38,028 nucleotides of DNA from an uncultured Gammaproteobacteria bacterium (GTDB lineage: Bacteria > Patescibacteriota > Microgenomatia > UBA12405 > JAHJSD01): NCBI GenBank assembly GCA_964536585.1, contig CAZHXO010000001.1, positions 1-38,028 on the forward strand, in the 5' to 3' direction. The notes under the pieces were generated by a model. The model had not been told where the DNA came from, did no database searches, and was given only the letters and a program-made list of their open reading frames with translations. The translations under genes were made by a program, and so were the position numbers. Shown one piece after another: positions 488 through 38,028 of this stretch (positions are counted from its first letter, which is position 1; every line of letters starts with the position of its first letter).

Positions 488-1545
488 TGTCTTTCTTAAT
501 ATTTTTTATTGCCATATCAAGCATGATTCTTATCCACGAGCTGGGCCATTTTTTAATGGCCAAGTTACATGGCCTTAGAGTGGAGGAGTTTGGTTTGGGT
601 TACCCGCCCCGTTTAGTTGGCAAGAAGTTCAAAGAAACAATTTATTCCTTGAACTTGATTCCCATGGGCGGCTTTGTTCGTATTTGGGGAATGGAGAGTC
701 GGGTGGATGAAGACAAAAACAGGGCCTTTTATACCCAGTCCAAAAAAGTTCAATTTTTAATTTTAGCCGCCGGGGTGGTAATGAACTTTCTTTTGGCAAT
801 TGGCGTTTTTAGTGTTGTTTATGGTATTCAGGGCGTTCCGCAAGAAATTGGGGCAGTAAAGATTGTTCAAATTGCTTCTGATTCTCCGGCTGGTAAGTCT
901 GACTTAGAAATAGATACTAAGGTTGTAGCTATAAAAATAGGTGATCAAGAGTTTGAAACTAATAATATGCAGCAGTTTACAGAGATTATTAATCAGCATT
1001 TAGGCGAGGAAGTTATTTTAGTTTCCTTGGAAGGAGAAGAATATAAATTAACTCCTCGAGAAAATCCTCCGGAAGACCAAGGGGCATTGGGGGTAATTAT
1101 CACTGACAAGAAATTGGTAAAAATATCTTTAATCAAAAGGATTCCCCTTGGCATTTGGTATGGATTGAAAGAAGGAATTTTATGGGGCGTGGAAATTTTT
1201 CAAAGCATAATTGGCATATTCACAACCCTTTTTCAAGGTAAAGTACCTAAGCAAGTGACCGGTCCGATTGGTATTTACTCAGCTTCCCGGGAAATTTTTA
1301 AAGCTCAGGGCTTATTATCCTTAATCCATTTTTTTGCGGTTGTTTCGGTGAACTTAGCTATAGTTAATGTTATTCCTATCCCCGGAACAGACGGCTGGCA
1401 TGCGAGTATTTTGGGGTTTGAAACAATTCGGGGTAGAAAACTGACCGAAAAAACAAAGACGCGAATTAACCAACTGGCAATGATTTTTATTTTGCTTTTA
1501 TCGGTTTTGGTTATTGCCGCAGATATTAAGCGGTTTTTACTCTAG
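487..1545 (+). CDS. rseP: site-2 (M50) zinc metalloprotease with PDZ-like insert, RseP/RasP type
   Basis: HELGH zinc motif at the N-terminus, multiple TM segments, central PDZ-like stretch, C-terminal NLAIVNVIPIPGTDG motif. The GTG start overlaps the frr stop. Confidence 0.85.
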   Translation: MSFLIFFIAISSMILIHELGHFLMAKLHGLRVEEFGLGYPPRLVGKKFKETIYSLNLIPMGGFVRIWGMESRVDEDKNRAFYTQSKKVQFLILAAGVVMNFLLAIGVFSVVYGIQGVPQEIGAVKIVQIASDSPAGKSDLEIDTKVVAIKIGDQEFETNNMQQFTEIINQHLGEEVILVSLEGEEYKLTPRENPPEDQGALGVIITDKKLVKISLIKRIPLGIWYGLKEGILWGVEIFQSIIGIFTTLFQGKVPKQVTGPIGIYSASREIFKAQGLLSLIHFFAVVSVNLAIVNVIPIPGTDGWHASILGFETIRGRKLTEKTKTRINQLAMIFILLLSVLVIAADIKRFLL

Positions 1546-2919
1546 TCTTTCCCATTCTAATAAAACCGCAGAGTTGGGCTGAAGAATAATCTTTTTGGTA
1601 ATTTGTTTTGATTGAACTTCTTCTCGATTGGTTTGACTTGGTCCTTGGAAATATTGTTGACTGTACTGATAGGTGCCGGGTTGAATATTTTTAAGAGTAA
1701 TCGGGGTTGATTCATAGTGACGGTTTAAGGGATCATAGTTGACTACTAAAACCTGTATCTTATTTGCTTCTTGCGTGGCAATTGCTTTAACCCAACTGCC
1801 TTCTTTGGAAAGAGAAACCCTTTGGCCATTTAGTTGGTTTAGAAAACTGTAAGCATGATAGCGTGGTTTTTTGGACGATACCCCGTGATTTTTATGGGTC
1901 AAAAGCCCCCAACGCCCCCAGTATTTTTTAGGTCCTGGCCCGTCAATAATTTCAAAAGTAAATACTCGATGAACCTTGCCCATTAATTGGGTCATACAGG
2001 CCATAGAATGAATTGCGGATATTTTATTATCGTACCAAGCCGAATTTTCTGAGTGGGGTCCGAATTCTGTAATTAAACGTTCTAAGGTAAAGTATTTAGG
2101 GTAATTGGTTAAAATTGCATTAAGTTTTTCAAAATCTCGGTTATAACTTTCCAAGTTCTTAGCGTAACGGTGCCAAGAAATAAAATCAATTCTTAAATCA
2201 TTGTCCTGACAATAATTTAAGAGTGCTTTAATCCAGTTAGGGTAAAAGCCGGTAGTTGCTGGCCCACCAATTTTAAATGCGTTGACATTAGTTGCCTTTT
2301 GGGCGGCTTTAACTGTGTGATAGTAAAGAGTTAAATAATTAGGTTGTTTGCCATAATGCCAGTTGCCGAACAAATCCGGTTCGTTCCAAACTTCATAATA
2401 AAGATTGTCTAAATTATATCCATCTTTGCCGCTGTATCTGCTTACTGTTGCTTTAACCAAATTCTGCCATTCAAGCCAATTATTGGGAACAGAAACATTT
2501 TTACCATCTAGGGACAGGGAAGGTGGCATATAAGAAAAAACTAACATTGGTTTAGCACCGCTTTTTAGAATAGTCTTGACAATATCATCAAGTTGTGAAA
2601 AATCATATTTCGCTTGCCCGTCAGCCGACGGGTTAATTTTGACATGGTGGTCGAACAAATGGTCAATTCTGATTAACTGCGGATTAAGTTGAGTAGTTTC
2701 ACTAACTACTGGCTGAAGCATATTATTAGCTTCCTCGCCGCCCTGAGCGTAATTTTGCCACAGCCGCTTGGGAAGTGGACCACTGGTTTGGGCAAGGTCA
2801 ATTTCAATATTGGCTTTAGTACCAAAAGCAACTCGGCGAAGGTCTTGGTTTTGAAAAACTGCCCACAAAGTGATGGGGATGAGGAGAAGGATAGCTAGAA
2901 TAGTTGGTATTTTGCCCAT
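1537..2919 (-). CDS. membrane-anchored or secreted clan GH-A glycoside hydrolase (GH39-like)
   Basis: N-terminal hydrophobic anchor. YYEVWNEPDLFGNW (acid/base NEP motif) and LITEFGP (nucleophile Glu) are typical of GH39/GH5-type TIM-barrel hydrolases. The 3' end overlaps the rseP 3' end by 9 nt. Confidence 0.65.
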   Translation of the reverse strand: MGKIPTILAILLLIPITLWAVFQNQDLRRVAFGTKANIEIDLAQTSGPLPKRLWQNYAQGGEEANNMLQPVVSETTQLNPQLIRIDHLFDHHVKINPSADGQAKYDFSQLDDIVKTILKSGAKPMLVFSYMPPSLSLDGKNVSVPNNWLEWQNLVKATVSRYSGKDGYNLDNLYYEVWNEPDLFGNWHYGKQPNYLTLYYHTVKAAQKATNVNAFKIGGPATTGFYPNWIKALLNYCQDNDLRIDFISWHRYAKNLESYNRDFEKLNAILTNYPKYFTLERLITEFGPHSENSAWYDNKISAIHSMACMTQLMGKVHRVFTFEIIDGPGPKKYWGRWGLLTHKNHGVSSKKPRYHAYSFLNQLNGQRVSLSKEGSWVKAIATQEANKIQVLVVNYDPLNRHYESTPITLKNIQPGTYQYSQQYFQGPSQTNREEVQSKQITKKIILQPNSAVLLEWERLE

Positions 2920-2948
2920 TAATATAATAGTAGCTTATTAATAAATCC

Positions 2949-2978
2949 TTGACAAATGGTTTTTAATAATGCTTTAAT
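2949..2978 (+). promoter_or_regulatory. candidate sigma70-type promoter for the surface-protein operon
   Basis: TTGACA at 2949-2954, 18-nt spacer, TTTAAT at 2973-2978, 27 nt upstream of the ATG at 3006. Confidence 0.4.
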
Positions 2979-3005
2979 GGAGTTAATAAGGGATTCCTTA
3001 ATCTT

Positions 3006-5258
3006 ATGAAAAAGAAGAAACGACATTTACAACGCGGTGCCGTCCAAGCACCGCTTATTATTGGTTTATTGCTTATTGGTTTAGCCCTTCCGGCTGCACT
3101 TCAATTAGTCCAGCAAAGACAGGAAACCAGGAAAGCAGCAATAGATAATCAAGAAGAATGTGAAGCTGTGGGGCACACCTGGTGCGGTAGTGGTACTTGC
3201 CCTGATGGTTGGTCTTATGGTCCTGGCTGTTGGACGGGTGGGAGTTGTGAAGCTAGACACGAGGAAGCTTGTGCTGATCACCAAGGAGGCGGAGACGGTG
3301 ATACGGGCGGTACTGATTGTAGTGATGTTTATAATAGAGACCTAAGCGGATATTCTTGTGAGAATGGAGTGTTAGTTGATGCCAATGGGAATAGGGCGGA
3401 TAAACAGAAATGGTGTGGGACTGGATGCCCTTCTACAGTAGAAACAAACAGCGACTGTTGTGATGGACAGGATATATGCCAATGTGCTAGTGCGGAGATA
3501 GAACCGACTAGACCACCCCCAACAGCCACGCCAGTTCCTGATGATGTTGAATGTTATTGTTACGGAAGTTGTGACACAGCTAATTGTCAATGGAGTGAGG
3601 TGGATCCCTTTGGGAATATGGGAGCGCTTTGTGATGACAGCAAGTGTGAGGGTGAACCAACCGCAACTCCAATGCCGACAGAAAGTTATGTTCAATGTGA
3701 TGTTGCCCATGAAATATGCGTTTCATCAATCGGGGAATGCCAATCAGGCACAGTTGATTTTAACAGAAAGTGCGGCCAGGACAGCGGCGGATATAAATAT
3801 TGTTGTCAGCCAAAATCTGAGCCAACCGCGACTCCTACACCCGATTGCCGTCCAGACGGCTATAATTGTAGTATGCTGACCGCTGGTTCAACTCATTGTA
3901 GTTGGTGTTGTAATGGTTATCATTGGGCAGGAGCGTTGAGTGGTGGTTATATTTGTGGACCAGGGGAAGATGATACACCTGAATGTGGTTCCAATCAATG
4001 TTATTCAGGCCGCTATAGCACCTGCCGGGATAATTGTTTTACTGAAGGCAATCAGATTTGTTGTAATGGTGAGTGGAAGCTGGAATCAGAAGGCTGTGCC
4101 GCTTGTGAAGTAACTCCTACTCCCGGAATTGATACCTGTGGTTATGGCGGAGACCCAGATGCCGGGGTTTGTCGAGTAGGGGGTTGTGAAGCTGGGGAAA
4201 AAGCAGTAGATCCGACAGATTGTGCTGGGTATAATGAAGTGTGTTGTGTACCTGAAGTTGACTCTGATGTTGAATGTTATTGTTACGGAAGTTGTGACAC
4301 AGCTAATTGTCAATGGAGTGAGGTGGATCCCTTTGGGAATATGGGAGCGCTTTGTGATGACAGCAAGTGTGAGGGTGAACCAACCGCAACTCCAATGCCG
4401 ACAGAAAGTTATGTTCAATGTGATGTTGCCCATGAAATATGCGTTTCATCAATCGGGGAATGCCAATCAGGCACAGTTGATTTTAACAGAAAGTGCGGCC
4501 AGGACAGCGGCGGATATAAATATTGTTGTCAGCCAAAATCTGAGCCAACCGCGACTCCTCAACCAACCGCGACTCCTCAACCAACTGCGACCCCAACTGA
4601 GTCTGAAGGCGAGCCAGGACCGGGGCCAGGAGAACCGACAGCTACCCCGCCAGCAAATCCGACTGAGTCTCCTACTGAGCCGGGCGAGGAATGTCCTTAT
4701 GATTCTTTACAATCCCGGATTCAAGTCAACGCTCAAACTAATTGGCAAAAAGAACTGGATGTTGAAGTGGGCGATACCATCAATTTAGGCTGTATGCATG
4801 ATGGAAGTGGTAGTTTAGCCAGCAATGTAGTTTTGGTTGCTGACGGGCCAATTAAGAAAGAATGGAATAGAAATAATCAGGATAGTGGAACTGAAGGAAG
4901 AGTTACCGGGTGGGAGGTTCCCCAATCTGGTAGTTATCGTATTTATTGTTATTCAACCGATGATAACTGCAGTGGAATGAATTCCGGTGCTGACAGTTCA
5001 GTTTTGGATGCTGCACCCACTGGCTGTAAACCTTGTCCAGATGGTAGTTACGTAGCCTTGGGAGCCACCAGTTATAGTTGTCAGACTGATGGAACCTCTT
5101 TGGATGACTTTATTGGCTGGAAAGAACAATACATAAAGGTTTTTTATCACAACCAACAGATCCCAGCTAGTCAATTATATGCTGATTACGATTGTGACGG
5201 CACGATTGGTGTAAATGACATAATATTATGGAAAGAGAAATATTTAGAAACTCTTTGA
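3006..5258 (+). CDS. secreted cysteine-rich modular protein with Pro/Thr linkers, a duplicated module pair and a C-terminal dockerin-like segment
   Basis: N-terminal KKKKR plus hydrophobic signal/anchor. About 66 Cys in 750 aa by my count. Cys-rich modules of about 40 aa end in CC(Q/V)P and are separated by EPTATP linkers. The C-terminus TDGTSLDDFIGWKEQY...DYDCDGTIGVNDIILWKEKY looks like a two-segment dockerin. TGA stop. Confidence 0.8.
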   Translation: MKKKKRHLQRGAVQAPLIIGLLLIGLALPAALQLVQQRQETRKAAIDNQEECEAVGHTWCGSGTCPDGWSYGPGCWTGGSCEARHEEACADHQGGGDGDTGGTDCSDVYNRDLSGYSCENGVLVDANGNRADKQKWCGTGCPSTVETNSDCCDGQDICQCASAEIEPTRPPPTATPVPDDVECYCYGSCDTANCQWSEVDPFGNMGALCDDSKCEGEPTATPMPTESYVQCDVAHEICVSSIGECQSGTVDFNRKCGQDSGGYKYCCQPKSEPTATPTPDCRPDGYNCSMLTAGSTHCSWCCNGYHWAGALSGGYICGPGEDDTPECGSNQCYSGRYSTCRDNCFTEGNQICCNGEWKLESEGCAACEVTPTPGIDTCGYGGDPDAGVCRVGGCEAGEKAVDPTDCAGYNEVCCVPEVDSDVECYCYGSCDTANCQWSEVDPFGNMGALCDDSKCEGEPTATPMPTESYVQCDVAHEICVSSIGECQSGTVDFNRKCGQDSGGYKYCCQPKSEPTATPQPTATPQPTATPTESEGEPGPGPGEPTATPPANPTESPTEPGEECPYDSLQSRIQVNAQTNWQKELDVEVGDTINLGCMHDGSGSLASNVVLVADGPIKKEWNRNNQDSGTEGRVTGWEVPQSGSYRIYCYSTDDNCSGMNSGADSSVLDAAPTGCKPCPDGSYVALGATSYSCQTDGTSLDDFIGWKEQYIKVFYHNQQIPASQLYADYDCDGTIGVNDIILWKEKYLETL
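3542..3836 (+). repeat. copy 1 of a 295-bp perfect direct repeat inside the Cys-rich CDS
   Basis: Base-for-base identical by eye to 4265-4559. The 723-nt offset equals 241 codons, so it is in frame. Confidence 0.9.
4265..4559 (+). repeat. copy 2 of the 295-bp perfect direct repeat inside the Cys-rich CDS
   Basis: Identical to 3542-3836. Both encode DVECYCYGSCDTANCQW...GGYKYCCQPKSEPTATP. Confidence 0.9.
4545..4598 (+). repeat. 18-bp tandem repeat x3 (two perfect, one diverged) encoding the PTATPQ linker
   Basis: ccaaccgcgactcctcaa at 4545-4562 and 4563-4580, then ccaactgcgaccccaact at 4581-4598. Confidence 0.85.
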
Positions 5259-5285
5259 TTATTTAATTATGAGGAAAAAGAATAA

Positions 5286-6425
5286 ATGAACGACCAAAGA
5301 AAGCAAGCATTAAGCTTAGTTGCAATTTTGATGGCTGCTGCTGGCTTATTAGCAGGAGGAATTTTATTGCAACGCCGAACCGAGCTCAGGCGAAAAGCAG
5401 TTTATAGTAATATTGATGTGAGCTTACATCCACAACCGTTGGAGGTCTGTAAAGGCGACCAAGCTAAACTTTTGGTTAAGGTTGACCCCAGCCCTGAAAA
5501 CGCAGCTGAAACAGCTGAGATACATGCGGCTGAAATAAGGTTGAATTTTGATAATGAAATAGCAGCAGTTAGTAAGGTAACTTTTCATGACGATTACGGG
5601 GCGAGTATTTGGAACGAAGATAAAGCAAACAATTCGGGTGTGCTAAAAATGGCGGCGTTAACAATGGCACAAAGTGTTCCTACAGAAGTTTTTGATTTGG
5701 TTGAAGTTGAATTTAGCGGAGAAAAAGAAGGAGAGTTTGAGCTTCGCTTGGATAGTGATTATGAAATCCGCGGAGTTCGCGGCCAAACAGATGCTGATGT
5801 TGATCGGGAGCTGGAAATAAATAATGTTGATCAAATTGTTACTCAGGTTAAAGTGGTTGATTGTGATGGAGAGGGAGAGGCTGATTGGCCTAAGATGACT
5901 TTTAAAATTCGATTTGTAGGAACAGAGTATGAAGCTAGTGGTAAAGAGATTGTGGTGAGTAATATTCCTGACCAGAAAGTAGATATAGTAATTAAAGGTC
6001 AAGGACAACGCAAGGTTTTTGAGAATGTTAATGTTTCTTTTGATGAGCAGGCAATCGGAACTGGTAGTTTAGAGTTGGTTGGAGTCACCCCGGGAAGTGG
6101 ATATACGATTTTAATTAAGGGGCCGGTTCATTTAGCTCGCCGCTTTTGTGAGGATGAACAGGTTGACCGCTGTTGGTTAGGCCAAGGTAATTTAACAATT
6201 ACCAGTGGTGAAAATGTTTTTGATTGGACTGCGCTAGCTCTTGAACCCGGAGATATTAATAGAGACGGAATAGTCGATGCGACTGATTATACAAAATTAA
6301 AAGCAGCCTTGGGGCAATCAGGTGAGGCTGTCCAAGAAGATCTTAACAGGAACGGAACCGTTACTGGTCAGGATGTAGTCTTTTTCCTAGAAACGCTGAG
6401 TAAGCGATACGAAGAAGAAATTTAG
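5286..6425 (+). CDS. membrane-anchored protein with a cohesin-like domain, an Ig-like middle domain and a C-terminal type-I-like dockerin
   Basis: N-terminal TM. The stretch IDVSLHPQPLEVCKGDQAKLLVKVD...AAEIRLNFDNEIAAVSKV...FDLVEVEFSGEKEGEFEL fits the cohesin pattern. The C-terminus GDINRDGIVDATDYTKLKAAL...EDLNRNGTVTGQDVVFFLETL is a duplicated Ca-binding dockerin motif. Confidence 0.65.
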   Translation: MNDQRKQALSLVAILMAAAGLLAGGILLQRRTELRRKAVYSNIDVSLHPQPLEVCKGDQAKLLVKVDPSPENAAETAEIHAAEIRLNFDNEIAAVSKVTFHDDYGASIWNEDKANNSGVLKMAALTMAQSVPTEVFDLVEVEFSGEKEGEFELRLDSDYEIRGVRGQTDADVDRELEINNVDQIVTQVKVVDCDGEGEADWPKMTFKIRFVGTEYEASGKEIVVSNIPDQKVDIVIKGQGQRKVFENVNVSFDEQAIGTGSLELVGVTPGSGYTILIKGPVHLARRFCEDEQVDRCWLGQGNLTITSGENVFDWTALALEPGDINRDGIVDATDYTKLKAALGQSGEAVQEDLNRNGTVTGQDVVFFLETLSKRYEEEI

Positions 6426-6428
6426 TCC

Positions 6429-6456
6429 TTGCAAAAGAAAGCGGTTTGATTATATA
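6429..6456 (+). promoter_or_regulatory. candidate internal promoter
   Basis: TTGCAA at 6429-6434, 16-nt spacer, TATATA at 6451-6456. An AAGGAG RBS at 6471-6476 precedes the ATG at 6483. Confidence 0.35.
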
Positions 6457-6482
6457 GTTGAATAGTTAACAAGGAGTTTAAA

Positions 6483-7070
6483 ATGGATTTAAAAAAATTA
6501 GACACTGCAAAATGGCTGGTCCCAGTTTTAGCATTTTTAGTCATTATAGAAAGTGTTTTCATTGTTCAAAAATTATCTCAGCAACAAATCGGAGACTGGG
6601 AAGAAGAAAACAAAAGTTTACCAGCTAGTTTACAACCCGGAAAGAAGCAGCAAACAGTTCTTGCCTTAAAAGGAGAAGATAATATTGAGGTCGAAAGTCA
6701 GGGACAGGTAAGGGTAGTTATGACCCCCTTTGAACAATTATCCTTGGATGGAGTTGATATTTTAATTGAGTATAACCCTGATTATATTGATATTTTAGGG
6801 ACAGACCCGTCTGACCGCTTTTCCCGGGTGGGCCGGAATTGGATTGAACCCCAAAAAAATCGGGTTGTAGTTACTTTGGTACAGCTGGATCAAGCCGTTA
6901 ATTTTGAGGCTGGTCAAGAAGTAACTCTACTAACTTTAAGCTACAAAGCTCTAAAAAAAGGGGAAACAACCTTAAAATTAAAGCAAGCTGAGGCCGGCGG
7001 GACAAATTTGGCTGGTTTGGGAAAGGAATATCCATTTCAAACTGAAGATTTGAGTTTAACAGTAAAATGA
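6483..7070 (+). CDS. membrane-anchored cohesin-like domain protein
   Basis: N-terminal TM. The stretch VRVVMTPFEQLSLDGVDILIEYNPDYIDILG...EVTLLTLSYKALKKGETTLKL fits the cohesin beta-sandwich pattern. Confidence 0.55.
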   Translation: MDLKKLDTAKWLVPVLAFLVIIESVFIVQKLSQQQIGDWEEENKSLPASLQPGKKQQTVLALKGEDNIEVESQGQVRVVMTPFEQLSLDGVDILIEYNPDYIDILGTDPSDRFSRVGRNWIEPQKNRVVVTLVQLDQAVNFEAGQEVTLLTLSYKALKKGETTLKLKQAEAGGTNLAGLGKEYPFQTEDLSLTVK

Positions 7071-7747
7071 AGAAAATATTAATTTTTCTGGGTTTGGTTA
7101 GTAGCTTTTTTATAATTTCAGTTGCTACTGCTTATGCTGCGCCGCGATTGTATTTTGCCCCGGCGAGCGGTGATCAAGCGGTTGGTGAAACCTTTCAAGT
7201 AATAGTTAAGGTGGATACTGGAGAACAAGAAGTCGCAGCTGCTGACGCGATAATAAGTTTTGACTCGACTAAGCTAAAAGTGAATCAAGTTAGCAAAGGA
7301 GATTTTTTCCCGGAATTTAGTTATGATCTTGAAAATTCAGAAGGCGAACTTTCAATATGGGGAATGGTAGAAACAACTTTGGAATTAGTTTCGGGTGAAG
7401 GTGATTTAGCAACGATAACTTTTGAAGCGGAAAGCAATGGGGAAGCAGCAGTTTCTTTTTTATGTGAAGAGGGTAATGACACTGATTCTGCTATCTGGGA
7501 CAGTTCAGGCAATGATTTGATTGATTGTGCCTCCAACGGCAGTGGTTCATATACAATTGGGGGGACAGGGGCGACTTCTTCTCCTACTTCCACTTCCACT
7601 TCCACTCCCACTCCCACAAGTACTGCTTCAGCAGAGGCTACTGCTACACCTAGTGAATTGCCGGAAACAGGAATAGAAACCCCGTTGATTATTATGGGCT
7701 TAGGAGGAGTAATTGTGTTATTATTATCAACAGTGATGGCGATTTAA
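7067..7747 (+). CDS. secreted cohesin-like domain protein with Ser/Thr/Pro linker and LPXTG-type cell-wall sorting signal
   Basis: Signal peptide ending AYA-AP. Cohesin pattern GETFQVIVKVDTGEQEVAAADAIISFDSTKLKVNQVSKGDFF...GDLATITFEAESNGEAAVSF. C-terminal LPETG followed by a hydrophobic tail. ATGA start/stop overlap with the previous ORF. Confidence 0.7.
   Translation: MKKILIFLGLVSSFFIISVATAYAAPRLYFAPASGDQAVGETFQVIVKVDTGEQEVAAADAIISFDSTKLKVNQVSKGDFFPEFSYDLENSEGELSIWGMVETTLELVSGEGDLATITFEAESNGEAAVSFLCEEGNDTDSAIWDSSGNDLIDCASNGSGSYTIGGTGATSSPTSTSTSTPTPTSTASAEATATPSELPETGIETPLIIMGLGGVIVLLLSTVMAI
7586..7615 (+). repeat. hexanucleotide tandem repeat (acttcc x3, actccc x2) encoding a TS/TP linker
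   Basis: Read directly from the sequence. In frame within CDS 7067-7747. Confidence 0.85.
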
Positions 7748-7748
7748 A

Positions 7749-8348
7749 ATGAAGGGGAATATAAAGAAGATAATTATTGTTGTTATCTTATTACTAACCG
7801 GAGTGTTGGCTGTTTTTGGTATTCGAGCGGCTAAGACCTATTTAAGTGGGGCAGCTGGGGGGGCAGAGCCTGAAAATGTGCAAGTTCAAGCGGAATCAAA
7901 ATCAGCGACTATTAGTTGGCAATCAGAAAAAGAGAGTCAAGCAACAGTAGAGTATGGGACAACACCAGCCAGTTTGCTACTTCGCGCTCCTGAACAACAA
8001 GCGGCTACAACTCACCGGGTTGATCTATCTCCTTTAAGGTCGGGAACAACTTATTATTTCCGGATTCGGGTTGGTGACAAAATTTTTGACAATGACGGAA
8101 TCCCCTTTTCCTTTAAAACAAAGGCGGAAGAAACTGAGGAGGCTTTGTCTCCAACACCAACTCAGCGGGCTTTGCCAACCAGTGCACAACCAACGACTAC
8201 AACCGCTACTGATAGTGCTAAAGTGACTCAATGTGTTAAATCAGAATTTAAGGAGAAGTTCGGGACAAGCAATTCCAGCTATGATTTGGATGATAATGGA
8301 GTAGTCAATACTCGTGATTGGATAATGTGTTTGAATGAAAACCAATAA
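7749..8348 (+). CDS. membrane-anchored FN3-like domain protein with a C-terminal single dockerin-like segment
   Basis: N-terminal TM. ATISWQSEKESQATVEYGTTP...THRVDLSPLRSGTTYYFRIRV is an FN3/PAP-N-like signature. The C-terminus is YDLDDNGVVNTRDWIMCL. Confidence 0.55.
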   Translation: MKGNIKKIIIVVILLLTGVLAVFGIRAAKTYLSGAAGGAEPENVQVQAESKSATISWQSEKESQATVEYGTTPASLLLRAPEQQAATTHRVDLSPLRSGTTYYFRIRVGDKIFDNDGIPFSFKTKAEETEEALSPTPTQRALPTSAQPTTTTATDSAKVTQCVKSEFKEKFGTSNSSYDLDDNGVVNTRDWIMCLNENQ

Positions 8349-18137: not shown

Positions 18138-18171
18138 CAAATTTAACTCAGCGATCGCCGAACTAAATTTT
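18138..18171. repeat. 34-bp CGATCG-centred imperfect palindrome, family A copy 1
   Basis: caaatttaactcag-CGATCG-ccgaactaaatttt, identical to 18874-18907. It overlaps the stop codon of CDS 18163-18840 and follows the prfA stop by 3 nt. A T-run follows on the + strand. Confidence 0.9.
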
Positions 18172-18840
18172 TAATTTTTTCTGGGCGAAAAGCTTGAAAA
18201 TTGTTTTTAATGGCCAGGTTGACGGGAGTAAATCTAAAGGAACTTTTGGATGTTGGGAAACTAAATCCCAGAATTGAAGTTGTAATTCTTCAGATAGTTT
18301 CCTTTCTTTTTTAAGTTTTTGCTTCCAGCTATTTGCTTTATTTTTCCATTGATGAACTTCCCATTTTTCCTCGATAATTTTCCGGGGATCACAACGTAAT
18401 ATTTTACCCTCAATAACACCTAGGTAATTAGTATCATCAATTTGTTTATCCAGTTGTCTAATTTTGTCAGTTAAGGGAAGAGGGGAGAACCAAACCGAGC
18501 GTTGAAAGAATTTAAAATCCCATTCTTTTAGTCGCCGTCGAATTAAATCCCGGGCAGTTTTATTTTTTTGCGGGATATCGAAAACCACGAATCGCCATTT
18601 TTTATCCCAAGGCTTTTTTATTAATTTCAAAATTGACTCAGGTTTTTGTTTAAAGGTTAAATCGGGATTCAAAACACCCTTTTTAATGAAATAGTTTTTT
18701 GTGCTTCTTACTCCTGCGCACAACCAATCGTCAAGGGTTGGTATTTTTCTTGTATCGGTATGAAAGTAATCGTAAAACAAAATCATTAAGTCTTCAGCAG
18801 TTCTAAGGGTTTGAAGTAATTTTGACTTTCTTTTTTGCAC
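18163..18840 (-). CDS. PaaX-like protein with Cas2-like central domain (paralog 1)
   Basis: KKWRFVVFDIPQKNKTARDLIRRRLKEWDFKFFQRSVWFSPLP is the PaaX-middle/Cas2-like motif. It is homologous along its length to CDS 29744-30409. The ORF is open to a TTG at 18876, but alignment with the paralog and the promoter layout favour the GTG at 18838-18840. Confidence 0.7.
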   Translation of the reverse strand: MQKRKSKLLQTLRTAEDLMILFYDYFHTDTRKIPTLDDWLCAGVRSTKNYFIKKGVLNPDLTFKQKPESILKLIKKPWDKKWRFVVFDIPQKNKTARDLIRRRLKEWDFKFFQRSVWFSPLPLTDKIRQLDKQIDDTNYLGVIEGKILRCDPRKIIEEKWEVHQWKNKANSWKQKLKKERKLSEELQLQFWDLVSQHPKVPLDLLPSTWPLKTIFKLFAQKKLKI

Positions 18841-18846
18841 ACTTAA

Positions 18847-18876
18847 TTTATACCCCTTTTTAAGAGTGAAAGTCAA
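18847..18876 (-). promoter_or_regulatory. promoter of PaaX-like paralog 1, abutting the upstream palindrome
   Basis: On the minus strand: TTGACT (18876-18871), 18-nt spacer, TATAAA (18852-18847), 6 nt, GTG. The -35 box overlaps the end of repeat A2 by 3 nt. Confidence 0.5.
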
Positions 18877-20197: not shown

Positions 20198-20905
20198 TTA
20201 TTCTGTTTCTGCCTCGGTTGGGCTTGGAGATTCTCGGGGAGTGATTACGAGGATTTCTATTGCATTAAAACTGTTAGTTTCGCCGTCTGCCGGTTCAATA
20301 ACAGCAATGATTTCCTGGTCGGTAGTTAAGTTTTGGTAGTCAATTTCTTCAATGTCAGATTCAGTCCTTTGGTTAATTTCCGTATCAGAATCAAAAATTA
20401 ATTCATATTCTTGTTCTGAGTTTTGAATTAAAATAATTTCTTCGCCGTTGGCTTTATTTACTATTTTGCCGTGGACAGAAGTCTTCTTTCTTGGCTGATA
20501 TGCTTCGCTGACGACAATGCGGCGGGCATTTAAGGTGTTATCAATTTTCTCGTAACCCATGGCTAGAACGTATTGTTCTTCTTCCAAGTCTTCAAAGCTT
20601 ATTTCTTCTCGGTTTTGATTAATAATTTTTATTTCCTCGTTTAAAGTTACTGTTCGGCTTTGTTCTCCTTGAGAAATTTCAAAATTAGTATTGTTGACAG
20701 ATGTGATTGTCCCGGCCCAACCTTTTTTTTGGTCCTCGGTAACAATGCTTTCTATTTTTTCTTGAACCTTTTCCTGAACCTTGTCTCTAACACCCTGTAT
20801 TTTTTCATTAGGAGTTGGGCTGGGGGAAGTTTGGGCTTTAATTTTAAGGCTAATAAGAAAACTGCTCATTATAAGTGTAGTTAGTAAAATGATTATTTTT
20901 TTCAT
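20198..20905 (-). CDS. secreted hypothetical protein (signal peptide, repeated beta-rich modules)
   Basis: N-terminal signal peptide MKKIIILLTTLIMSSFLISLKIKA, SPSPTP at both ends, no catalytic motif recognised. Confidence 0.5.
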   Translation of the reverse strand: MKKIIILLTTLIMSSFLISLKIKAQTSPSPTPNEKIQGVRDKVQEKVQEKIESIVTEDQKKGWAGTITSVNNTNFEISQGEQSRTVTLNEEIKIINQNREEISFEDLEEEQYVLAMGYEKIDNTLNARRIVVSEAYQPRKKTSVHGKIVNKANGEEIILIQNSEQEYELIFDSDTEINQRTESDIEEIDYQNLTTDQEIIAVIEPADGETNSFNAIEILVITPRESPSPTEAETE

Positions 20906-20913
20906 GGGAGAAT

Positions 20914-21366
20914 TTAAAAATCAGCAGTTGAATAAGTAACCGTTAATGTCTGACTGGTTTTAGTTCCGTCATCAGCATAAGCACTGACATCAATTCTGTT
21001 TTCTCCACCGATCAAGGTAATTTCAGTTTCAAATTCCCCTTGGTCATTAGCAACTAAAATCTCTTCCCCCTCTTCCCAAATAATAACCACAGTCGCGTTG
21101 GCAAGAGTTTCACCGCTTAGGGTTAAATTTTCCTCCGGGTGTACAATTTCATTATTCGGTTGGGTTATGTTTAATGGAATTTCTTCAATTTTTTCATCCG
21201 TAGACTCTGGGGCAGGGCTCGGAGTTTCAAGTTGGGATTTCTGGCTTTGCCGCCTTAAAGAACTAAGATCTAAGGAGCCGGATTGAGTTCTTGACCAAAA
21301 TACTGCTGCTATTCCAAAACCAAACACTAAGCCTATAAAGATTGCAATTACTAATTCTTTTCTCAT
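20914..21366 (-). CDS. membrane-anchored protein with bacterial Ig-like domain
   Basis: N-terminal TM. LTLSGETLANATVVIIWEEGEEILVANDQGEFETEITLIGGENRIDVSA is a typical Ig-like (BIg) pattern. Confidence 0.55.
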   Translation of the reverse strand: MRKELVIAIFIGLVFGFGIAAVFWSRTQSGSLDLSSLRRQSQKSQLETPSPAPESTDEKIEEIPLNITQPNNEIVHPEENLTLSGETLANATVVIIWEEGEEILVANDQGEFETEITLIGGENRIDVSAYADDGTKTSQTLTVTYSTADF

Positions 21367-29717: not shown

Positions 29718-29751
29718 TCAACTATCCTTTACGATCGTAGGGTTTATTTGA
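29718..29751. repeat. 34-bp CGATCG-centred imperfect palindrome, family B copy 1
   Basis: tcaactatccttta-CGATCG-tagggtttatttga. 28/34 identical to 30444-30477. It overlaps the stop codon of CDS 29744-30409. Confidence 0.85.
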
Positions 29752-30409
29752 AGGGTGCATTTAATTTTGTAAATTGTTTAATTACCTTTTTTAGGGGCCA
29801 GTCTGGAGGTAAAAGTTCTAGTGGGATTTTAGGGTGGTTTAAAACTAAACCCCAAAATTTTTGGTTGTATTCATCCCTTTGTAGTTTGTTTTGGTTATTT
29901 AATAACGATTGAGCCTTTTCATTCCAGGATTCTATTTCCCATAAAGATTTAACGATTTTCTTTGATTCTTTAGGAGGTAGCTTACTGGTAAAAAGATAGA
30001 ATGCTTTATAGTCACTAACTTTTTGTTTTATTTGTTTGATCTTTTTATCAGTCGGTAAAGGGCTTATCCAAGCAGAACGTTGTAGGTTTTTGAATCCAAA
30101 TCGTTTTAAAGACTTTCTTAGTTTATCGCGTGTTAGGCGATTTTTTTCAGGAATGTCAAATAAAACTAGCCGCCATTTTTTATCCCATTTATTCAGGAGT
30201 TTAAATAAGTTAAATGATTTTTCCTTTAATTCAAGATTTTCTGTTATTAGTCCTTGCTCAATTGAATACCATTTGCTTTTTTGTAATTTTATTTTTGGGA
30301 AACCGATACTTTGAGTTATCCATAATGGATCTCGGAAGTAGCTGTCAAAGAGTATTAAAAAATCCTCGGCAACTCTTAATATTTCAACTAACCGATTTCT
30401 TCTAGGCAT
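29744..30409 (-). CDS. PaaX-like protein with Cas2-like central domain (paralog 2)
   Basis: KKWRLVLFDIPEKNRLTRDKLRKSLKRFGFKNLQRSAWISPLP. C-terminal FWGLVLNHPKIPLELLPPDWPLKK matches FWDLVSQHPKVPLDLLPSTWPLKT in paralog 1. Confidence 0.75.
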   Translation of the reverse strand: MPRRNRLVEILRVAEDFLILFDSYFRDPLWITQSIGFPKIKLQKSKWYSIEQGLITENLELKEKSFNLFKLLNKWDKKWRLVLFDIPEKNRLTRDKLRKSLKRFGFKNLQRSAWISPLPTDKKIKQIKQKVSDYKAFYLFTSKLPPKESKKIVKSLWEIESWNEKAQSLLNNQNKLQRDEYNQKFWGLVLNHPKIPLELLPPDWPLKKVIKQFTKLNAPFK

Positions 30410-37518: not shown

Positions 37519-38028
37519 TTATTCATTTTGGCTGGTTAAATCATACAGAAGTTTATTTAAATTAACTGCGGCGACACCGACTACCTTATCTCCTCCGCCG
37601 TAATAAACATAAATATCTCCATTCAAAATTACTGCTCCGCAGGGATAAACAACATTGTTAACTTCACCTTCCAGTTCATACTTTAATCTCGGCTCGAGTA
37701 GAGGTTCATTTGACCGGGCAATAACTTGTCTTGGGTCATTTTTTTTAAGAAGCATTGCCCCCACCCGATAATGTTTATCTGCTTCAGAAATTGCGTGATA
37801 TAAAAGTAGCCAGCCGACATCGGTTTTAAACGGGGGAGCGGCAATGCCAATTTTGCGACTGTCCCAACTATCTGTTCGGGGTTTAAACCAGGCACTACCT
37901 TTAACCCATTTTTTATCTTTAAAATCAAGATTATCAACAAAATCAATCCAAATACACGGGTAAATACGGTGAAAAATAGCATATTTACCGTCTTTCATAT
38001 TGGGGACAATACAGGAGTTTTTATCGTC
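37519..38028 (-). CDS. GH130-like (DUF377) glycoside phosphorylase/hydrolase, C-terminal part (5' end beyond window)
   Basis: The frame stays open past the Met at 37998 to the window edge (DDKNSCIVPNMKDGKYAIFHR). WDSRKIGIAAPP, GWLLLYH, YRVGAMLL and VVYPCGAVILNGDIYVYYGGGDKVVGVA fit the five-bladed GH130 pattern. Confidence 0.7.
   Translation of the reverse strand, partial: DDKNSCIVPNMKDGKYAIFHRIYPCIWIDFVDNLDFKDKKWVKGSAWFKPRTDSWDSRKIGIAAPPFKTDVGWLLLYHAISEADKHYRVGAMLLKKNDPRQVIARSNEPLLEPRLKYELEGEVNNVVYPCGAVILNGDIYVYYGGGDKVVGVAAVNLNKLLYDLTSQNE

What the first reader, a model, noticed from the sequence alone, without database searches (positions are those of the whole stretch)
1537..8348. Cohesin-dockerin style surface-assembly locus in a CPR-like genome
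Seen: five co-directional ORFs (3006-8348) are packed with overlaps or 1-60 nt gaps, and each begins with a signal peptide or TM anchor. Three carry cohesin-like beta-sandwich patterns (5286, 6483, 7067). Three carry dockerin-like Ca-binding segments. These are 3006 (DGTSLDDFIGWKEQY / DCDGTIGVNDIILWKEKY), 5286 (DINRDGIVDATDYTKLKAAL / DLNRNGTVTGQDVVFFLETL) and 7749 (DLDDNGVVNTRDWIMCL). ORF 5286 has both module types, and ORF 7067 ends in LPETG plus a hydrophobic tail. A GH39-like hydrolase is transcribed divergently. Established: cohesin-dockerin pairs build cellulosomes, and LPXTG is the sortase substrate motif. Inference: this is a self-assembling scaffold made of an anchored cohesin, an adaptor with both modules, and dockerin cargo. 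The cargo here is a Cys-rich protein and an FN3 protein rather than classical cellulases. That could serve attachment to a host cell or a polymer by an episymbiotic bacterium.
Basis: partly seen in the sequence, partly recalled or inferred. Interest (0 to 1): 0.7.

Follow-up and report, generated by a model that had tools for sequence, protein, structure and literature searches.

The report
Cohesin-dockerin surface operon in Patescibacteria
A small, probably episymbiotic (Patescibacteria/CPR-type) bacterium carries a conserved operon of membrane- and wall-anchored proteins built from cohesin and dockerin modules, the 'plug and socket' parts known from cellulosomes, but here with non-enzymatic, adhesin-like cargo, so it most likely builds a surface attachment scaffold and not a cellulose-degrading machine.

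Summary
Five tightly packed co-directional ORFs (3006-8348) each start with a signal peptide or TM segment.

Three proteins carry cohesins:
- ORF5: Pfam Cohesin, 50 bits.
- ORF3: cohesin fold, and 13 of 19 family members hit Cohesin.
- ORF4: invisible to Pfam, but its AF2 model's top 44 PDB matches are all cohesins, and distant relatives hit Cohesin.

ORF3 also has an Ig-like X module and a canonical type I dockerin, the same layout as the CipA Coh-X-Doc fragment. ORF5 ends in LPETG plus a TM segment. That ending is conserved in 11 homologs, but there is no charged tail and no sortase gene in the window.

ORF2's C-terminus is a divergent, Cys-containing dockerin-like module, supported only at profile level. 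ORF6's is a single disulfide-flanked loop. It is weakly dockerin-like, and a distant homolog has lost the loop.

The four-gene core (ORF3-6) is syntenic in at least 10 related MAG contigs. The upstream cargo slot varies. The GH39 is only a sporadic neighbour with no dockerin.

Binding pairs, sortase anchoring and function are inferred, not shown. It is a new variant of a known kind, closest to the R. flavefaciens ScaE/ScaC/CttA arrangement.

The parts
3006..5258 (+). ORF2, the variable 'cargo' protein (750 aa, 66 Cys). It has an N-terminal hydrophobic segment (nt 3048-3110) followed by QETRKAA, Cys-rich modules separated by Pro/Thr linkers, a beta-rich region and a C-terminal docking module.
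   Evidence: No Pfam or NCBIfam family. Proteins in this slot in related loci have unrelated bodies (some with CARDB) but share the last ~77 aa.
3542..4564 (+). Internal duplication in ORF2: two 300-nt copies (3542-3841 and 4265-4564) at 99-100% identity, each encoding the same ~100-aa Cys-rich module.
5025..5255 (+). ORF2 C-terminal module: CKPCPDG motif, a degenerate first loop (SYSCQTDGTSLDD, nt 5070-5108) and a canonical second Ca-type loop (DYDCDGTIGVND, nt 5184-5219), each followed by a Trp-containing helix segment. It is a divergent, Cys-containing dockerin-like module.
   Evidence: The family profile A3 has dockerins as best PDB hits (5lxv_B at 2.1e-4; 5nrm_B at 3.6e-3 over both repeats). 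hhalign places it on the ORF3-family dockerin with P=1.5e-4. A paralog in L009 gets Pfam Dockerin_1 at E=0.016. The window protein itself has no Pfam hit.
5286..6425 (+). ORF3, the adaptor-type protein: TM segment (nt 5310-5369), cohesin (nt 5409-5858), Ig-like X module (nt 5883-6245) and type I dockerin (nt 6246-6422; loops DINRDGIVDATD and DLNRNGTVTGQD).
   Evidence: Pfam Dockerin_1 at 30.6 bits, above the cutoff of 22.9; Cohesin at 16.1 bits, below the cutoff. In the family, 19/19 hit Dockerin_1 and 13/19 hit Cohesin. AF2 model with Foldseek: best matches are the CipA Coh-X-Doc fragment 4fl4_C/3kcp_A (E=3.5e-13), and single cohesins match with TM-score 0.70-0.75. The dockerin part of the model has low confidence.
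6483..7070 (+). ORF4, a membrane-anchored single cohesin: a highly conserved TM helix with an invariant Glu (nt 6507-6566), a linker, and a divergent cohesin domain (nt 6651-7067).
   Evidence: No Pfam or PDB sequence hit. In the AF2 model, residues ~57-195 mostly have pLDDT above 90 (10-residue block means 79-97), and the top 44 PDB fold matches are all cohesins. The family profile finds 171 representative clusters, nearly all ~200 aa, and distant members hit Pfam Cohesin. The TM has 14/20 invariant columns, against 40/139 in the ectodomain.
7067..7747 (+). ORF5, the anchoring cohesin: cleavable-type signal peptide (nt 7067-7138, ...AYA/APRLYF), cohesin (nt 7139-7561), Ser/Thr/Pro stalk, LPETG (nt 7658-7672) and a C-terminal hydrophobic segment (nt 7673-7744).
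   Evidence: Pfam Cohesin at 3.8e-13, 50.2 bits. Weak NCBIfam LPXTG-subfamily hit at 25 bits, below the cutoff of 47. LP[ED][TA]G plus TM is conserved in 11 homologs, and LPQSG in distant L016.
7749..8348 (+). ORF6: conserved TM segment (nt 7770-7823), FN3 domain (nt 7872-8123), Pro/Thr linker and a C-terminal 42-aa module (nt 8220-8345) with one EF-hand-type loop (DLDDNGVVNTRD) between two invariant Cys.
   Evidence: Pfam Pur_ac_phosph_N at 1.4e-9 and fn3 at 1.2e-4. The C-terminal profile aligns to helix 1, linker, loop 2 and helix of the ORF3 dockerin with P=6.9e-5 but is not significant against PDB (E=0.066). The distant ortholog in L016 has a 4-Cys module without the loop.
1537..2919 (-). 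GH39-family glycoside hydrolase with an N-terminal TM segment, divergent from ORF2. It is a neighbour and probably not part of the assembly.
   Evidence: Pfam GH39 at 1.8e-33. Best PDB relatives are GH39 beta-xylosidases at ~1e-22. It has no dockerin or EF loop. It is present next to the cassette only in L008 (81% identity) and, further away, in L014 (64%).

Best explanation
The locus encodes a non-cellulosomal cohesin-dockerin assembly on the cell surface of a Patescibacteria-type bacterium.

Shown:
- Three single-cohesin proteins. ORF5 has a signal peptide, a stalk and an LPETG+TM end. ORF4 has a conserved TM helix. ORF3 has a TM segment and also carries an X module and a canonical dockerin.
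- Two further proteins end in dockerin-related modules: ORF2 with a Cys-containing double-loop module, and ORF6 with a single disulfide-flanked loop.
- The ORF3-ORF4-ORF5-ORF6 core is syntenic in many relatives. The upstream cargo slot changes its protein body but keeps the C-terminal module.

Inferred mechanism:
- ORF5 is the envelope-anchored base, sortase-linked or simply C-terminally membrane-anchored.
- The conserved X-Doc of ORF3 (and possibly the ORF6 C-terminus) plugs into a conserved cohesin, with ORF5 the best candidate.
- The fast-evolving cohesins of ORF3 and/or ORF4 capture the equally fast-evolving dockerin-like module of the interchangeable Cys-rich or CARDB cargo proteins, which are thereby displayed on the cell.
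- Because the cargo is non-catalytic and adhesin-like, the likely role is attachment (to a host cell, polymer or the cell's own envelope layer), not polysaccharide breakdown.
For: Module identities:
- Pfam Cohesin for ORF5 and Dockerin_1 for ORF3 are above the curated cutoffs.
- ORF3 family: 19/19 Dockerin_1, 13/19 Cohesin.
- ORF4 and ORF3 models match PDB cohesins. ORF3 as a whole matches the CipA Coh-X-Doc fragment.
- Distant ORF4 relatives hit Cohesin.
- The ORF2-type module profile has dockerins as best PDB hits and aligns over both dockerin repeats.

Belonging together:
- Gaps are 27, 57, -4 and 1 nt.
- The same gene order occurs in at least 10 loci, and a rearranged version in a distant lineage in a different neighbourhood.
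- All four EF loops in the window sit at cassette C-termini.

Cargo logic:
- Only the last ~77 aa are shared among slot proteins.
- One contig has three cargo genes and a duplicated ORF2-ORF3-ORF4 unit.

Rate matching over 9 loci (mean pairwise identity):
- Fast class: ORF3 cohesin 0.35, ORF2 module 0.44, ORF4 cohesin 0.49.
- Slow class: ORF3 dockerin 0.66, ORF5 cohesin 0.65, ORF6 C-terminus 0.68.

Precedent: the R. flavefaciens sca cluster, with a sortase-anchored single-cohesin ScaE, an adaptor ScaC and a non-enzymatic XDoc cargo CttA (PMC5301203).
Against:
- The window's ORF2 gets no Pfam dockerin hit, and its first loop is degenerate.
- The ORF6 module has one loop, is not significant against PDB dockerins, and the loop is missing in L016.
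- The AF2 model of the ORF3 dockerin has low confidence.
- ORF3, ORF4 and ORF6 all have their own N-terminal anchors, so docking is not needed simply to hold them on the cell.
- The LPETG signal lacks a positively charged tail, and no sortase gene is in the window or fetched loci.
- The rate matching is confounded by shared phylogeny and rests on 6-9 loci.
Confidence: 0.6

Rival explanations
1. These are independent surface proteins. The cohesin-fold and EF-hand or dockerin-like modules act on their own (Ig-like spacers, Ca-stabilised domains, or glycan or host-protein binders) and do not bind each other. The operon only co-expresses envelope proteins.
For: Three of the five proteins have their own TM anchors. 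The ORF2 and ORF6 modules are only weakly dockerin-like. From general knowledge, most non-cellulosomal cohesins and dockerins have no known partner. The essential dockerin-domain protein of Southlakia was discussed only as a possible glycan binder (PMC10633639).
Against: Three cohesins and three dockerin-type modules co-occur strictly in one conserved, translationally tight cassette across lineages. The cargo slot keeps only its C-terminal module. The ORF3 X-Doc half is much more conserved than its cohesin half, which fits a conserved partner.
Confidence: 0.2
2. It is a true minimal cellulosome. The scaffold recruits dockerin-bearing glycoside hydrolases encoded elsewhere in the genome to degrade plant or host polysaccharide, and the neighbouring GH39 is part of that function.
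For: The cohesin, dockerin and LPXTG parts are the same as in cellulosome anchoring systems. A GH39 is adjacent and divergent, and this is conserved in the closest relative L008. There is a GH130 fragment at the window end.
Against: The GH39 has no dockerin or EF loop and is absent next to most related cassettes. Those sit beside envelope-polysaccharide synthesis genes (Wzy_C, glycosyltransferases, Bac_transf) instead. No multi-cohesin scaffoldin or CBM is present. All dockerin-bearing proteins seen in 15 loci are non-catalytic.
Confidence: 0.07
3. It is a self-polymerising fibre or envelope tether. ORF3, which has both a cohesin and a dockerin, binds itself head-to-tail (or binds ORF4 in the membrane) to form a filament or a membrane-to-wall strut. 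ORF5 is the wall end, and the conserved TM helices of ORF4 and ORF6 form the membrane base.
For: More distant relatives (L012, L013) have an ORF3-like Coh-X-Doc protein with no ORF4-6 downstream. A dockerin recognising its own protein's cohesin is documented for ScaH (PMC5301203). The ORF4 TM helix is its most conserved part and has an invariant Glu. The ORF3 middle domain also resembles Gram-positive pilin Ig domains.
Against: The ORF3 cohesin evolves much faster than its own dockerin (0.35 against 0.66 identity), which is not expected for a self-pair. There are no pilin-type sorting signals or isopeptide motifs. Only ORF5 has LPXTG.
Confidence: 0.13

Closest known systems
Ruminococcus flavefaciens sca gene cluster (ScaC-ScaA-ScaB-CttA-ScaE) and its ScaE-based cell-surface attachment (PMC5301203)
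   Same: It is a gene cluster encoding a single-cohesin protein with a signal peptide and a C-terminal LPXTG signal (ScaE, matching ORF5). It also encodes an adaptor with one cohesin and one dockerin (ScaC, matching ORF3), X-module-dockerin dyads (ScaB and CttA, matching the ORF3 X-Doc), and a non-enzymatic adhesive cargo docked to the anchor (CttA, matching ORF2-type proteins).
   Different: Here there is no multi-cohesin scaffoldin, no CBM and no dockerin-bearing enzymes in the locus. Three components have N-terminal TM anchors. The cargo module is a Cys-containing dockerin variant that Pfam does not recognise. The LPETG signal lacks a charged tail. The organism is a small-genome Patescibacteria-type MAG, not a cellulolytic Firmicute. 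No binding has been shown.
Clostridium thermocellum CipA C-terminal CohI9-X-DocII fragment with SdbA (PDB 3kcp, 4fl4)
   Same: This is the best structural match to the whole ORF3 model (E=3.5e-13). It has the same order of cohesin, Ig-like X module and dockerin, with the X-Doc used for anchoring and the cohesin for capturing cargo.
   Different: The ORF3 dockerin matches the type I HMM, not type II. Sequence identity is about 13%. ORF3 has one cohesin and its own TM anchor. The Foldseek superposition is poor globally (rmsd ~18 A) because the domain orientations differ.
Non-cellulosomal cohesin and dockerin modules (e.g. Archaeoglobus fulgidus cohesin 2xdh; Clostridium perfringens GH84/GH33 cohesin-like modules 2jh2, 2vo8, 2w1n)
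   Same: These are single cohesins outside cellulose degradation that are used, or presumed to be used, for protein-protein assembly. They are among the best fold matches for ORF3 and ORF4.
   Different: Those examples are appended to enzymes or toxins, or are isolated genes. Here a complete anchor, adaptor and cargo set is encoded as one conserved operon with non-enzymatic cargo.
Essential dockerin-domain envelope protein SEML1_0315 of the Saccharibacterium Southlakia epibionticum (PMC10633639)
   Same: It is a dockerin-bearing cell-envelope protein in Patescibacteria, proposed to act in host-cell interaction.
   Different: No cohesin partner or operon was described there. Homology to the present proteins was not tested here.

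Membership tests
Cohesin (Pfam PF00963) | Significant match to the Cohesin profile | tested here: met
   ORF5 scores 50.2 bits against a cutoff of 24.1. ORF3 itself scores 16.1 bits, below the cutoff, but 13/19 family members score E<=0.01, with the best at 6.9e-8. ORF4 has no hit itself, but distant family members P0060, P0100, P0053, P0172 and P0176 hit Cohesin over the homologous region.
Cohesin (Pfam PF00963) | Nine-stranded flattened beta-sandwich (jelly-roll) fold | tested here: met
   ORF4 AF2 model: residues ~57-195 mostly have pLDDT above 90, the top 44 PDB matches are all cohesins, and TM-score normalised to the target reaches 0.81. ORF3 residues 42-191 match single cohesins with TM-score 0.70-0.75.
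Cohesin (Pfam PF00963) | Binds a cognate dockerin | not testable with these tools
   No complex prediction or experiment was available.
Dockerin type I (Pfam PF00404) | Significant match to the Dockerin_1 profile | tested here: met
   This is met for ORF3 only: 30.6 bits against a cutoff of 22.9, and 19/19 family members. It is not met for ORF2 or ORF6 in the window. An ORF2-type paralog in L009 scores E=0.016, below the cutoff.
Dockerin type I (Pfam PF00404) | Two duplicated segments, each a 12-residue Ca-binding loop (Asp/Asn at positions 1, 3, 5 and Asp/Glu at 12) followed by a helix | tested here: inconclusive
   ORF3 has two canonical loops 29 residues apart, so the feature is met. ORF2 has a canonical second loop, but its first loop has a 2-residue insertion and lacks Asp1. 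Paralogs in other loci have both loops canonical. ORF6 has one loop only, so the feature is not met.
Dockerin type I (Pfam PF00404) | Three-helix, two-calcium dockerin fold | tested here: inconclusive
   The ORF3 model shows helices at 332-345 and 361-370 after the two loops, but pLDDT is 34-56 in this region.
Sortase substrate (LPXTG cell-wall sorting signal) | LPXTG motif followed by a hydrophobic segment near the C-terminus | tested here: met
   LPETG lies at aa 198-202, followed by 24 mostly hydrophobic residues. LP[ED][TA]G is conserved in 11 homologs.
Sortase substrate (LPXTG cell-wall sorting signal) | Positively charged tail after the hydrophobic segment | tested here: not met
   ORF5 ends ...LLLSTVMAI. 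No homolog has Lys or Arg at the extreme C-terminus. There is no Pfam Gram_pos_anchor hit, and the NCBIfam LPXTG subfamily scores 25 bits against a cutoff of 47.
Sortase substrate (LPXTG cell-wall sorting signal) | A sortase encoded in the genome | not testable with these tools
   None was found in the 38-kb window or the fetched loci (Pfam scan; TLxTC motif scan). The rest of the genome is not available.
Cellulosome | Scaffoldin with multiple cohesins, a CBM, and dockerin-bearing glycoside hydrolases | tested here: not met
   All cohesin proteins here have one cohesin. No CBM was found. The only hydrolase (GH39) has no dockerin. All dockerin-type proteins in the loci are non-catalytic. Enzymes elsewhere in the genome cannot be excluded.
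Patescibacteria / CPR origin | Relatives assigned to Patescibacteria; features incompatible with the 'Gammaproteobacteria' record titles | tested here: inconclusive
   All named members of the ORF3 family cluster are 'Patescibacteria group bacterium' (MFH1705439.1, MBU2592685.1, MFH1705574.1), as is the L012 record title. Nine TPA MAG titles say 'uncultured Gammaproteobacteria'. However, GyrB is 648 aa and lacks the insertion of E. coli GyrB. By general knowledge, an LPXTG signal is a monoderm-type feature. No phylogenetic placement was possible.

The most novel reading that the evidence does not exclude
This is a lineage-wide, minimal 'adhesosome' of Patescibacteria. It would be a membrane-to-surface scaffold built from a previously unrecognised family of TM-anchored mini-cohesins (the ORF4 family, 171 representative clusters, invisible to Pfam). 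It would also use a new Cys-containing dockerin subclass on swappable adhesin cargo, and a disulfide-stapled half-dockerin. The scaffold would mediate attachment of the episymbiont to its host, and specificity would evolve by exchanging the cargo gene and co-evolving the ORF3/ORF4 cohesin.
Probability: 0.25. Interest if true: 0.75.

Novelty: new variant of a known kind. Interest (0 to 1): 0.55.

Why it matters
Cohesin-dockerin pairs are well understood as the glue of cellulosomes. Their many non-cellulosomal occurrences mostly lack known partners or functions.

Here a complete, compact set of anchor, adaptor, second receptor and interchangeable non-enzymatic cargo is encoded in one conserved operon of an uncultivated small-genome lineage. 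Members of such lineages are thought to live attached to other cells. That gives a directly testable system: five small ectodomains, and three candidate sockets against three candidate plugs. It can address how such bacteria build their surface and possibly how they attach to hosts.

It also shows that a sizeable family of ~200-aa TM-anchored cohesins, and a Cys-containing dockerin variant, escape current profile annotation.

Tried and rejected
1. Pfam and NCBIfam on all six proteins gave no hit for ORF4 and no dockerin hit for ORF2 or ORF6.
2. PDB sequence searches with ORF4 alone and with its family profile gave only chance hits. Only the fold search identified ORF4.
3. The third homolog search, with the ORF2 C-terminal 189 aa, returned nothing, not even ORF2 itself, because that exact protein is not in the collection. 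That prevented an alignment-based model of the ORF2 module.
The ORF2 and ORF6 modules were therefore never modelled.
5. Complex prediction of cohesin-dockerin pairs is not possible with the tools.
6. The sortase hunt (Pfam on the remaining unknown ORFs; TLxTC motif over window and loci) found none.
7. The promoter/terminator scan gave counts at the shuffled expectation.
8. I considered that the GH39 could be a PslG-like exopolysaccharide hydrolase. The best PDB relatives are beta-xylosidases and PslG did not appear, so this was not pursued.
9. The 'Gammaproteobacteria' record titles were considered and judged unreliable.
10. Literature searches for cohesin or dockerin with CPR, Patescibacteria or Saccharibacteria found no description of such an operon in the held library.

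Full report
**1. Observation**

The intergenic gaps are 27, 57, -4 and 1 nt. A GH39-family gene at 1537-2919 on the minus strand is divergent from ORF2 (Pfam 1.8e-33).

Every protein begins with a hydrophobic segment:
- ORF5 has a classical cleavable-type signal (…ATAYA/APRLYF).
- ORF3, ORF4 and ORF6 have TM-length helices. AF2 places them at residues 3-34 in ORF3 and 5-38 in ORF4.

The dockerin/EF-hand loop pattern D.[DN].[DN]G.{5}[DE] occurs four times in all six-frame ORFs of the 38-kb window. All four are at the C-termini of ORF2, ORF3 (two) and ORF6. Shuffled cassette proteins give 0.02 on average.

**2. The modules**

*ORF5.* It matches Pfam Cohesin above the curated cutoff (50.2 bits against 24.1).

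*ORF3.*
- It matches Dockerin_1 above the cutoff (30.6 against 22.9) and Cohesin below it (16.1).
- In an alignment of 19 homologs, all 19 hit Dockerin_1 and 13 hit Cohesin at E<=0.01.
- An AF2 model built from that alignment (mean pLDDT 71) has a confident beta-sandwich at residues 42-191. This matches single cohesins with target-normalised TM-scores of 0.70-0.75.
- As a whole chain, the model's best matches are the C. thermocellum CipA cohesin-X-dockerin fragment (4fl4_C, 3kcp_A; E=3.5e-13).
- ORF3 is therefore TM, cohesin, Ig-like X module and type I dockerin.
- The dockerin part is modelled with low confidence, but it shows a helix after each of the two canonical loops (DINRDGIVDATD and DLNRNGTVTGQD).

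*ORF4.*
- It has no Pfam, NCBIfam or PDB sequence match, alone or as a family profile.
- In its AF2 model, residues ~57-195 mostly have pLDDT above 90. The top 44 PDB fold matches are all cohesin modules, with TM-scores up to 0.81.
- A profile search of 1.84 billion representatives found 171 clusters, nearly all ~200-aa proteins of the same layout. Several distant members hit Pfam Cohesin over the homologous region.
- ORF4 is thus a divergent, membrane-anchored cohesin that current annotation misses.

**3. The two other 'dockerin-like' ends are weaker**

*ORF2.*
- The window protein gets no dockerin hit.
- Its second loop (DYDCDGTIGVND) is canonical. Its first (SYSCQTDGTSLDD) has an insertion and lacks the first Asp.
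- Proteins in the same gene slot in related loci end in the same ~77-aa module: CKPCPDG, then two D[YF][DN]C[DN]G loops about 29 residues apart, each followed by DFxxWY.
- A profile of these ends has dockerins as its best PDB hits (5lxv_B at 2.1e-4; 5nrm_B at 3.6e-3, aligned across both repeats), followed by EF-hand proteins.
- The profile aligns on the ORF3-family dockerin with P=1.5e-4. One paralog gets Dockerin_1 at E=0.016.
- I call it a divergent, Cys-containing dockerin-like module. Homology is likely but not proven.

*ORF6.*
- Its 42-aa end has one loop (DLDDNGVVNTRD) between two invariant Cys.
- It aligns with helix 1, the linker, loop 2 and the following helix of the ORF3 dockerin (P=6.9e-5 over 37 columns). 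It is not significant against PDB dockerins (E=0.066).
- In a distant ortholog (L016) the loop is replaced by a four-Cys mini-module.
- It is at most a half-dockerin derivative.

**4. The genes belong together**

Look-ups of homologs and a scan of one genome per species gave 15 related loci.

In at least 10 loci the order is the same:
- an ORF3-like protein (365-396 aa);
- an ORF4-like protein (193-195 aa);
- a cohesin protein ending in LP[ED][TA]G plus TM (218-252 aa);
- an FN3 protein ending in the Cys-loop-Cys module (199-237 aa);
- then yqeY-ybeY-dnaX-ybaB…cysS-rpsF-ssb, as in the window.

A more distant lineage (L016, 32% identity) has the same set in a slightly different order and a different neighbourhood. 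Its sorting motif is LPQSG.

The gene in the ORF2 slot is variable:
- Its length is 434-833 aa.
- Its body is Cys-rich or carries CARDB.
- There are one to three copies.
- Only the C-terminal module is shared: 65% and 43% identity over 77 aa, with nothing alignable elsewhere.

One contig duplicates the unit ORF2-like, ORF3-like, ORF4-like without ORF5 or ORF6.

The GH39 is adjacent only in the closest relative (L008, 81%) and lies 3 kb away in L014 (64%). Other loci have Wzy_C, glycosyltransferase and Bac_transf genes there instead. The GH39 has no dockerin and is closest to beta-xylosidases. I treat it as a neighbour, not as a part of the system.

**5. Clues to who binds whom (inference only)**

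Mean pairwise identity over nine syntenic loci falls into two classes:
- Fast: ORF3 cohesin 0.35, ORF2 module 0.44, ORF4 cohesin 0.49.
- Slow: ORF3 dockerin 0.66, ORF5 cohesin 0.65, ORF6 C-terminus 0.68, ORF6 FN3 0.77.

This fits two pairings. The conserved X-Doc (and perhaps the ORF6 end) would plug into the conserved anchor cohesin ORF5. The variable cargo module would be captured by the variable cohesins of ORF3 and/or ORF4. The duplication unit agrees with this. The test is confounded by phylogeny and rests on few loci.

ORF4's TM helix is its most conserved part: 14 of 20 columns are invariant, including a Glu, against 29% of columns in the ectodomain. It is therefore probably a functional membrane helix and not a cleaved signal.

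**6. Anchoring**

LPETG followed by a hydrophobic segment is conserved. However, the canonical positively charged tail is absent in all homologs, and the curated LPXTG models do not reach threshold. No sortase is encoded in the window or the fetched loci. Sortase anchoring is plausible but not shown. A simple C-terminal membrane anchor is the alternative.

**7. Organism**

All named members of the ORF3 family cluster are 'Patescibacteria group bacterium', as is one genome record (L012). Nine TPA MAG records are titled 'uncultured Gammaproteobacteria'. Two points argue against that title:
- The 648-aa GyrB aligns end-to-end with Gram-positive-type proteins and lacks the insertion of E. coli GyrB.
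- From general knowledge, an LPXTG signal is a monoderm-type feature.

'CPR-like' is likely but was not tested phylogenetically.

**8. Comparison with known systems**

The closest described arrangement is the R. flavefaciens sca cluster (PMC5301203):
- ScaE has a single cohesin and is anchored by sortase through LPXTG.
- ScaC is an adaptor with one cohesin and one dockerin.
- ScaB and CttA carry X-Doc dyads.
- CttA is a non-enzymatic adhesive cargo docked on ScaE.

The present locus works like a stripped-down version of that, but it is not a cellulosome. It has no multi-cohesin scaffoldin, no CBM and no dockerin-bearing enzyme in any locus.

Non-cellulosomal cohesins (A. fulgidus 2xdh, C. perfringens 2jh2 and 2vo8) are among the fold matches.

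A dockerin-domain envelope protein is essential in the Saccharibacterium Southlakia, without a described cohesin partner (PMC10633639).

Searches of the held literature found no description of a cohesin-dockerin operon in CPR or Patescibacteria. That library is incomplete.

**9. Verdict**

The binding pairs, sortase anchoring, the role of the GH39 and the host-attachment function are all untested.

It is a new variant of a known kind. Interest is moderate (0.55): it offers a compact, testable non-cellulosomal cohesin-dockerin system in an uncultivated lineage, together with two module families that annotation currently misses.

Noticed in passing
window 3542-3841 and 4265-4564: There is a 300-nt direct repeat (99-100% identical, 723 nt apart) inside ORF2. 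It duplicates a ~100-aa Cys-rich module exactly, so it is either a very recent duplication or an assembly effect. ORF2's exact protein is absent from the 15-billion-protein collection although its neighbours are present.
   Followed up: partly
window 3120-3140 (ORF2), 5370-5408 (ORF3); L002:6703-8028, L014:6694-7998: A conserved motif Q-E-[TV]-R-[RK]-x-A-A sits directly after the N-terminal hydrophobic segment in ORF2, the ORF3 family (LVQxxQEVRRxAAYG) and short ORF2-slot paralogs. It may be a shared processing or sorting signal. ORF6 has a different conserved post-TM motif (R[AT]AKTYLSGA[AS]GG).
   Followed up: no
window 3006-3110; L001:6359-, L002:3596-, L005:5414-, L008:6700-, L014:4682-: The long ORF2-slot proteins share an N-terminus, QRGAxQxPLIIGLLLIGxALPAAL, although their bodies are unrelated. 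It loosely resembles a class III (prepilin-like) signal (R-G then a hydrophobic stretch) but has no Glu at +5. No family hit was found.
   Followed up: no
window 6507-6566: The TM helix of ORF4 (AKWLVPVLAFLVIIESVFIV) is more conserved than its cohesin domain and contains an invariant Glu. This suggests an intramembrane interaction partner.
   Followed up: partly
window 18163-18876 (-) and 29744-30409 (-): Two paralogous proteins (237 and 221 aa) have a PaaX central Cas2-like domain (PF20803, 1e-17 and 2e-21). No CRISPR array was noticed.
   Followed up: no
window 37519-37998 (-): This is a GH130 (beta-1,4-mannooligosaccharide phosphorylase family) C-terminal part. The 159-aa ORF matches profile positions 166-315 only, so it is either truncated or uses an upstream start beyond the window end.
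   Followed up: no
window 20198-21366 (-): Two adjacent N-terminally anchored small surface proteins are unrelated to the cassette. One has DUF5666 (weak). The other has a Glucodextran_B/Big_6 Ig-like domain (1.8e-9).
   Followed up: no
L002:1485-3264 / L009:785-4614 (contig CAZCGQ010000002.1): A second, partial copy of the system (ORF2-like 688 aa with CARDB, ORF3-like 412 aa, ORF4-like 193 aa) lies upstream of the full cassette. Two more cargo genes (833 and 441 aa) and a 163-aa weak-cohesin ORF lie between them.
   Followed up: partly
L016:6201-6848 (-): In the distant lineage the cassette lies about 2 kb from a DsbB gene. This may be relevant because the ORF2 and ORF6 modules rely on conserved Cys pairs.
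   Followed up: no
record titles of L005-L011, L013, L014: Nine TPA_asm MAG records holding this cassette are titled 'uncultured Gammaproteobacteria bacterium'. This conflicts with the Patescibacteria names of related proteins and with the Gram-positive-type GyrB length. The titles look like placeholders.
   Followed up: partly
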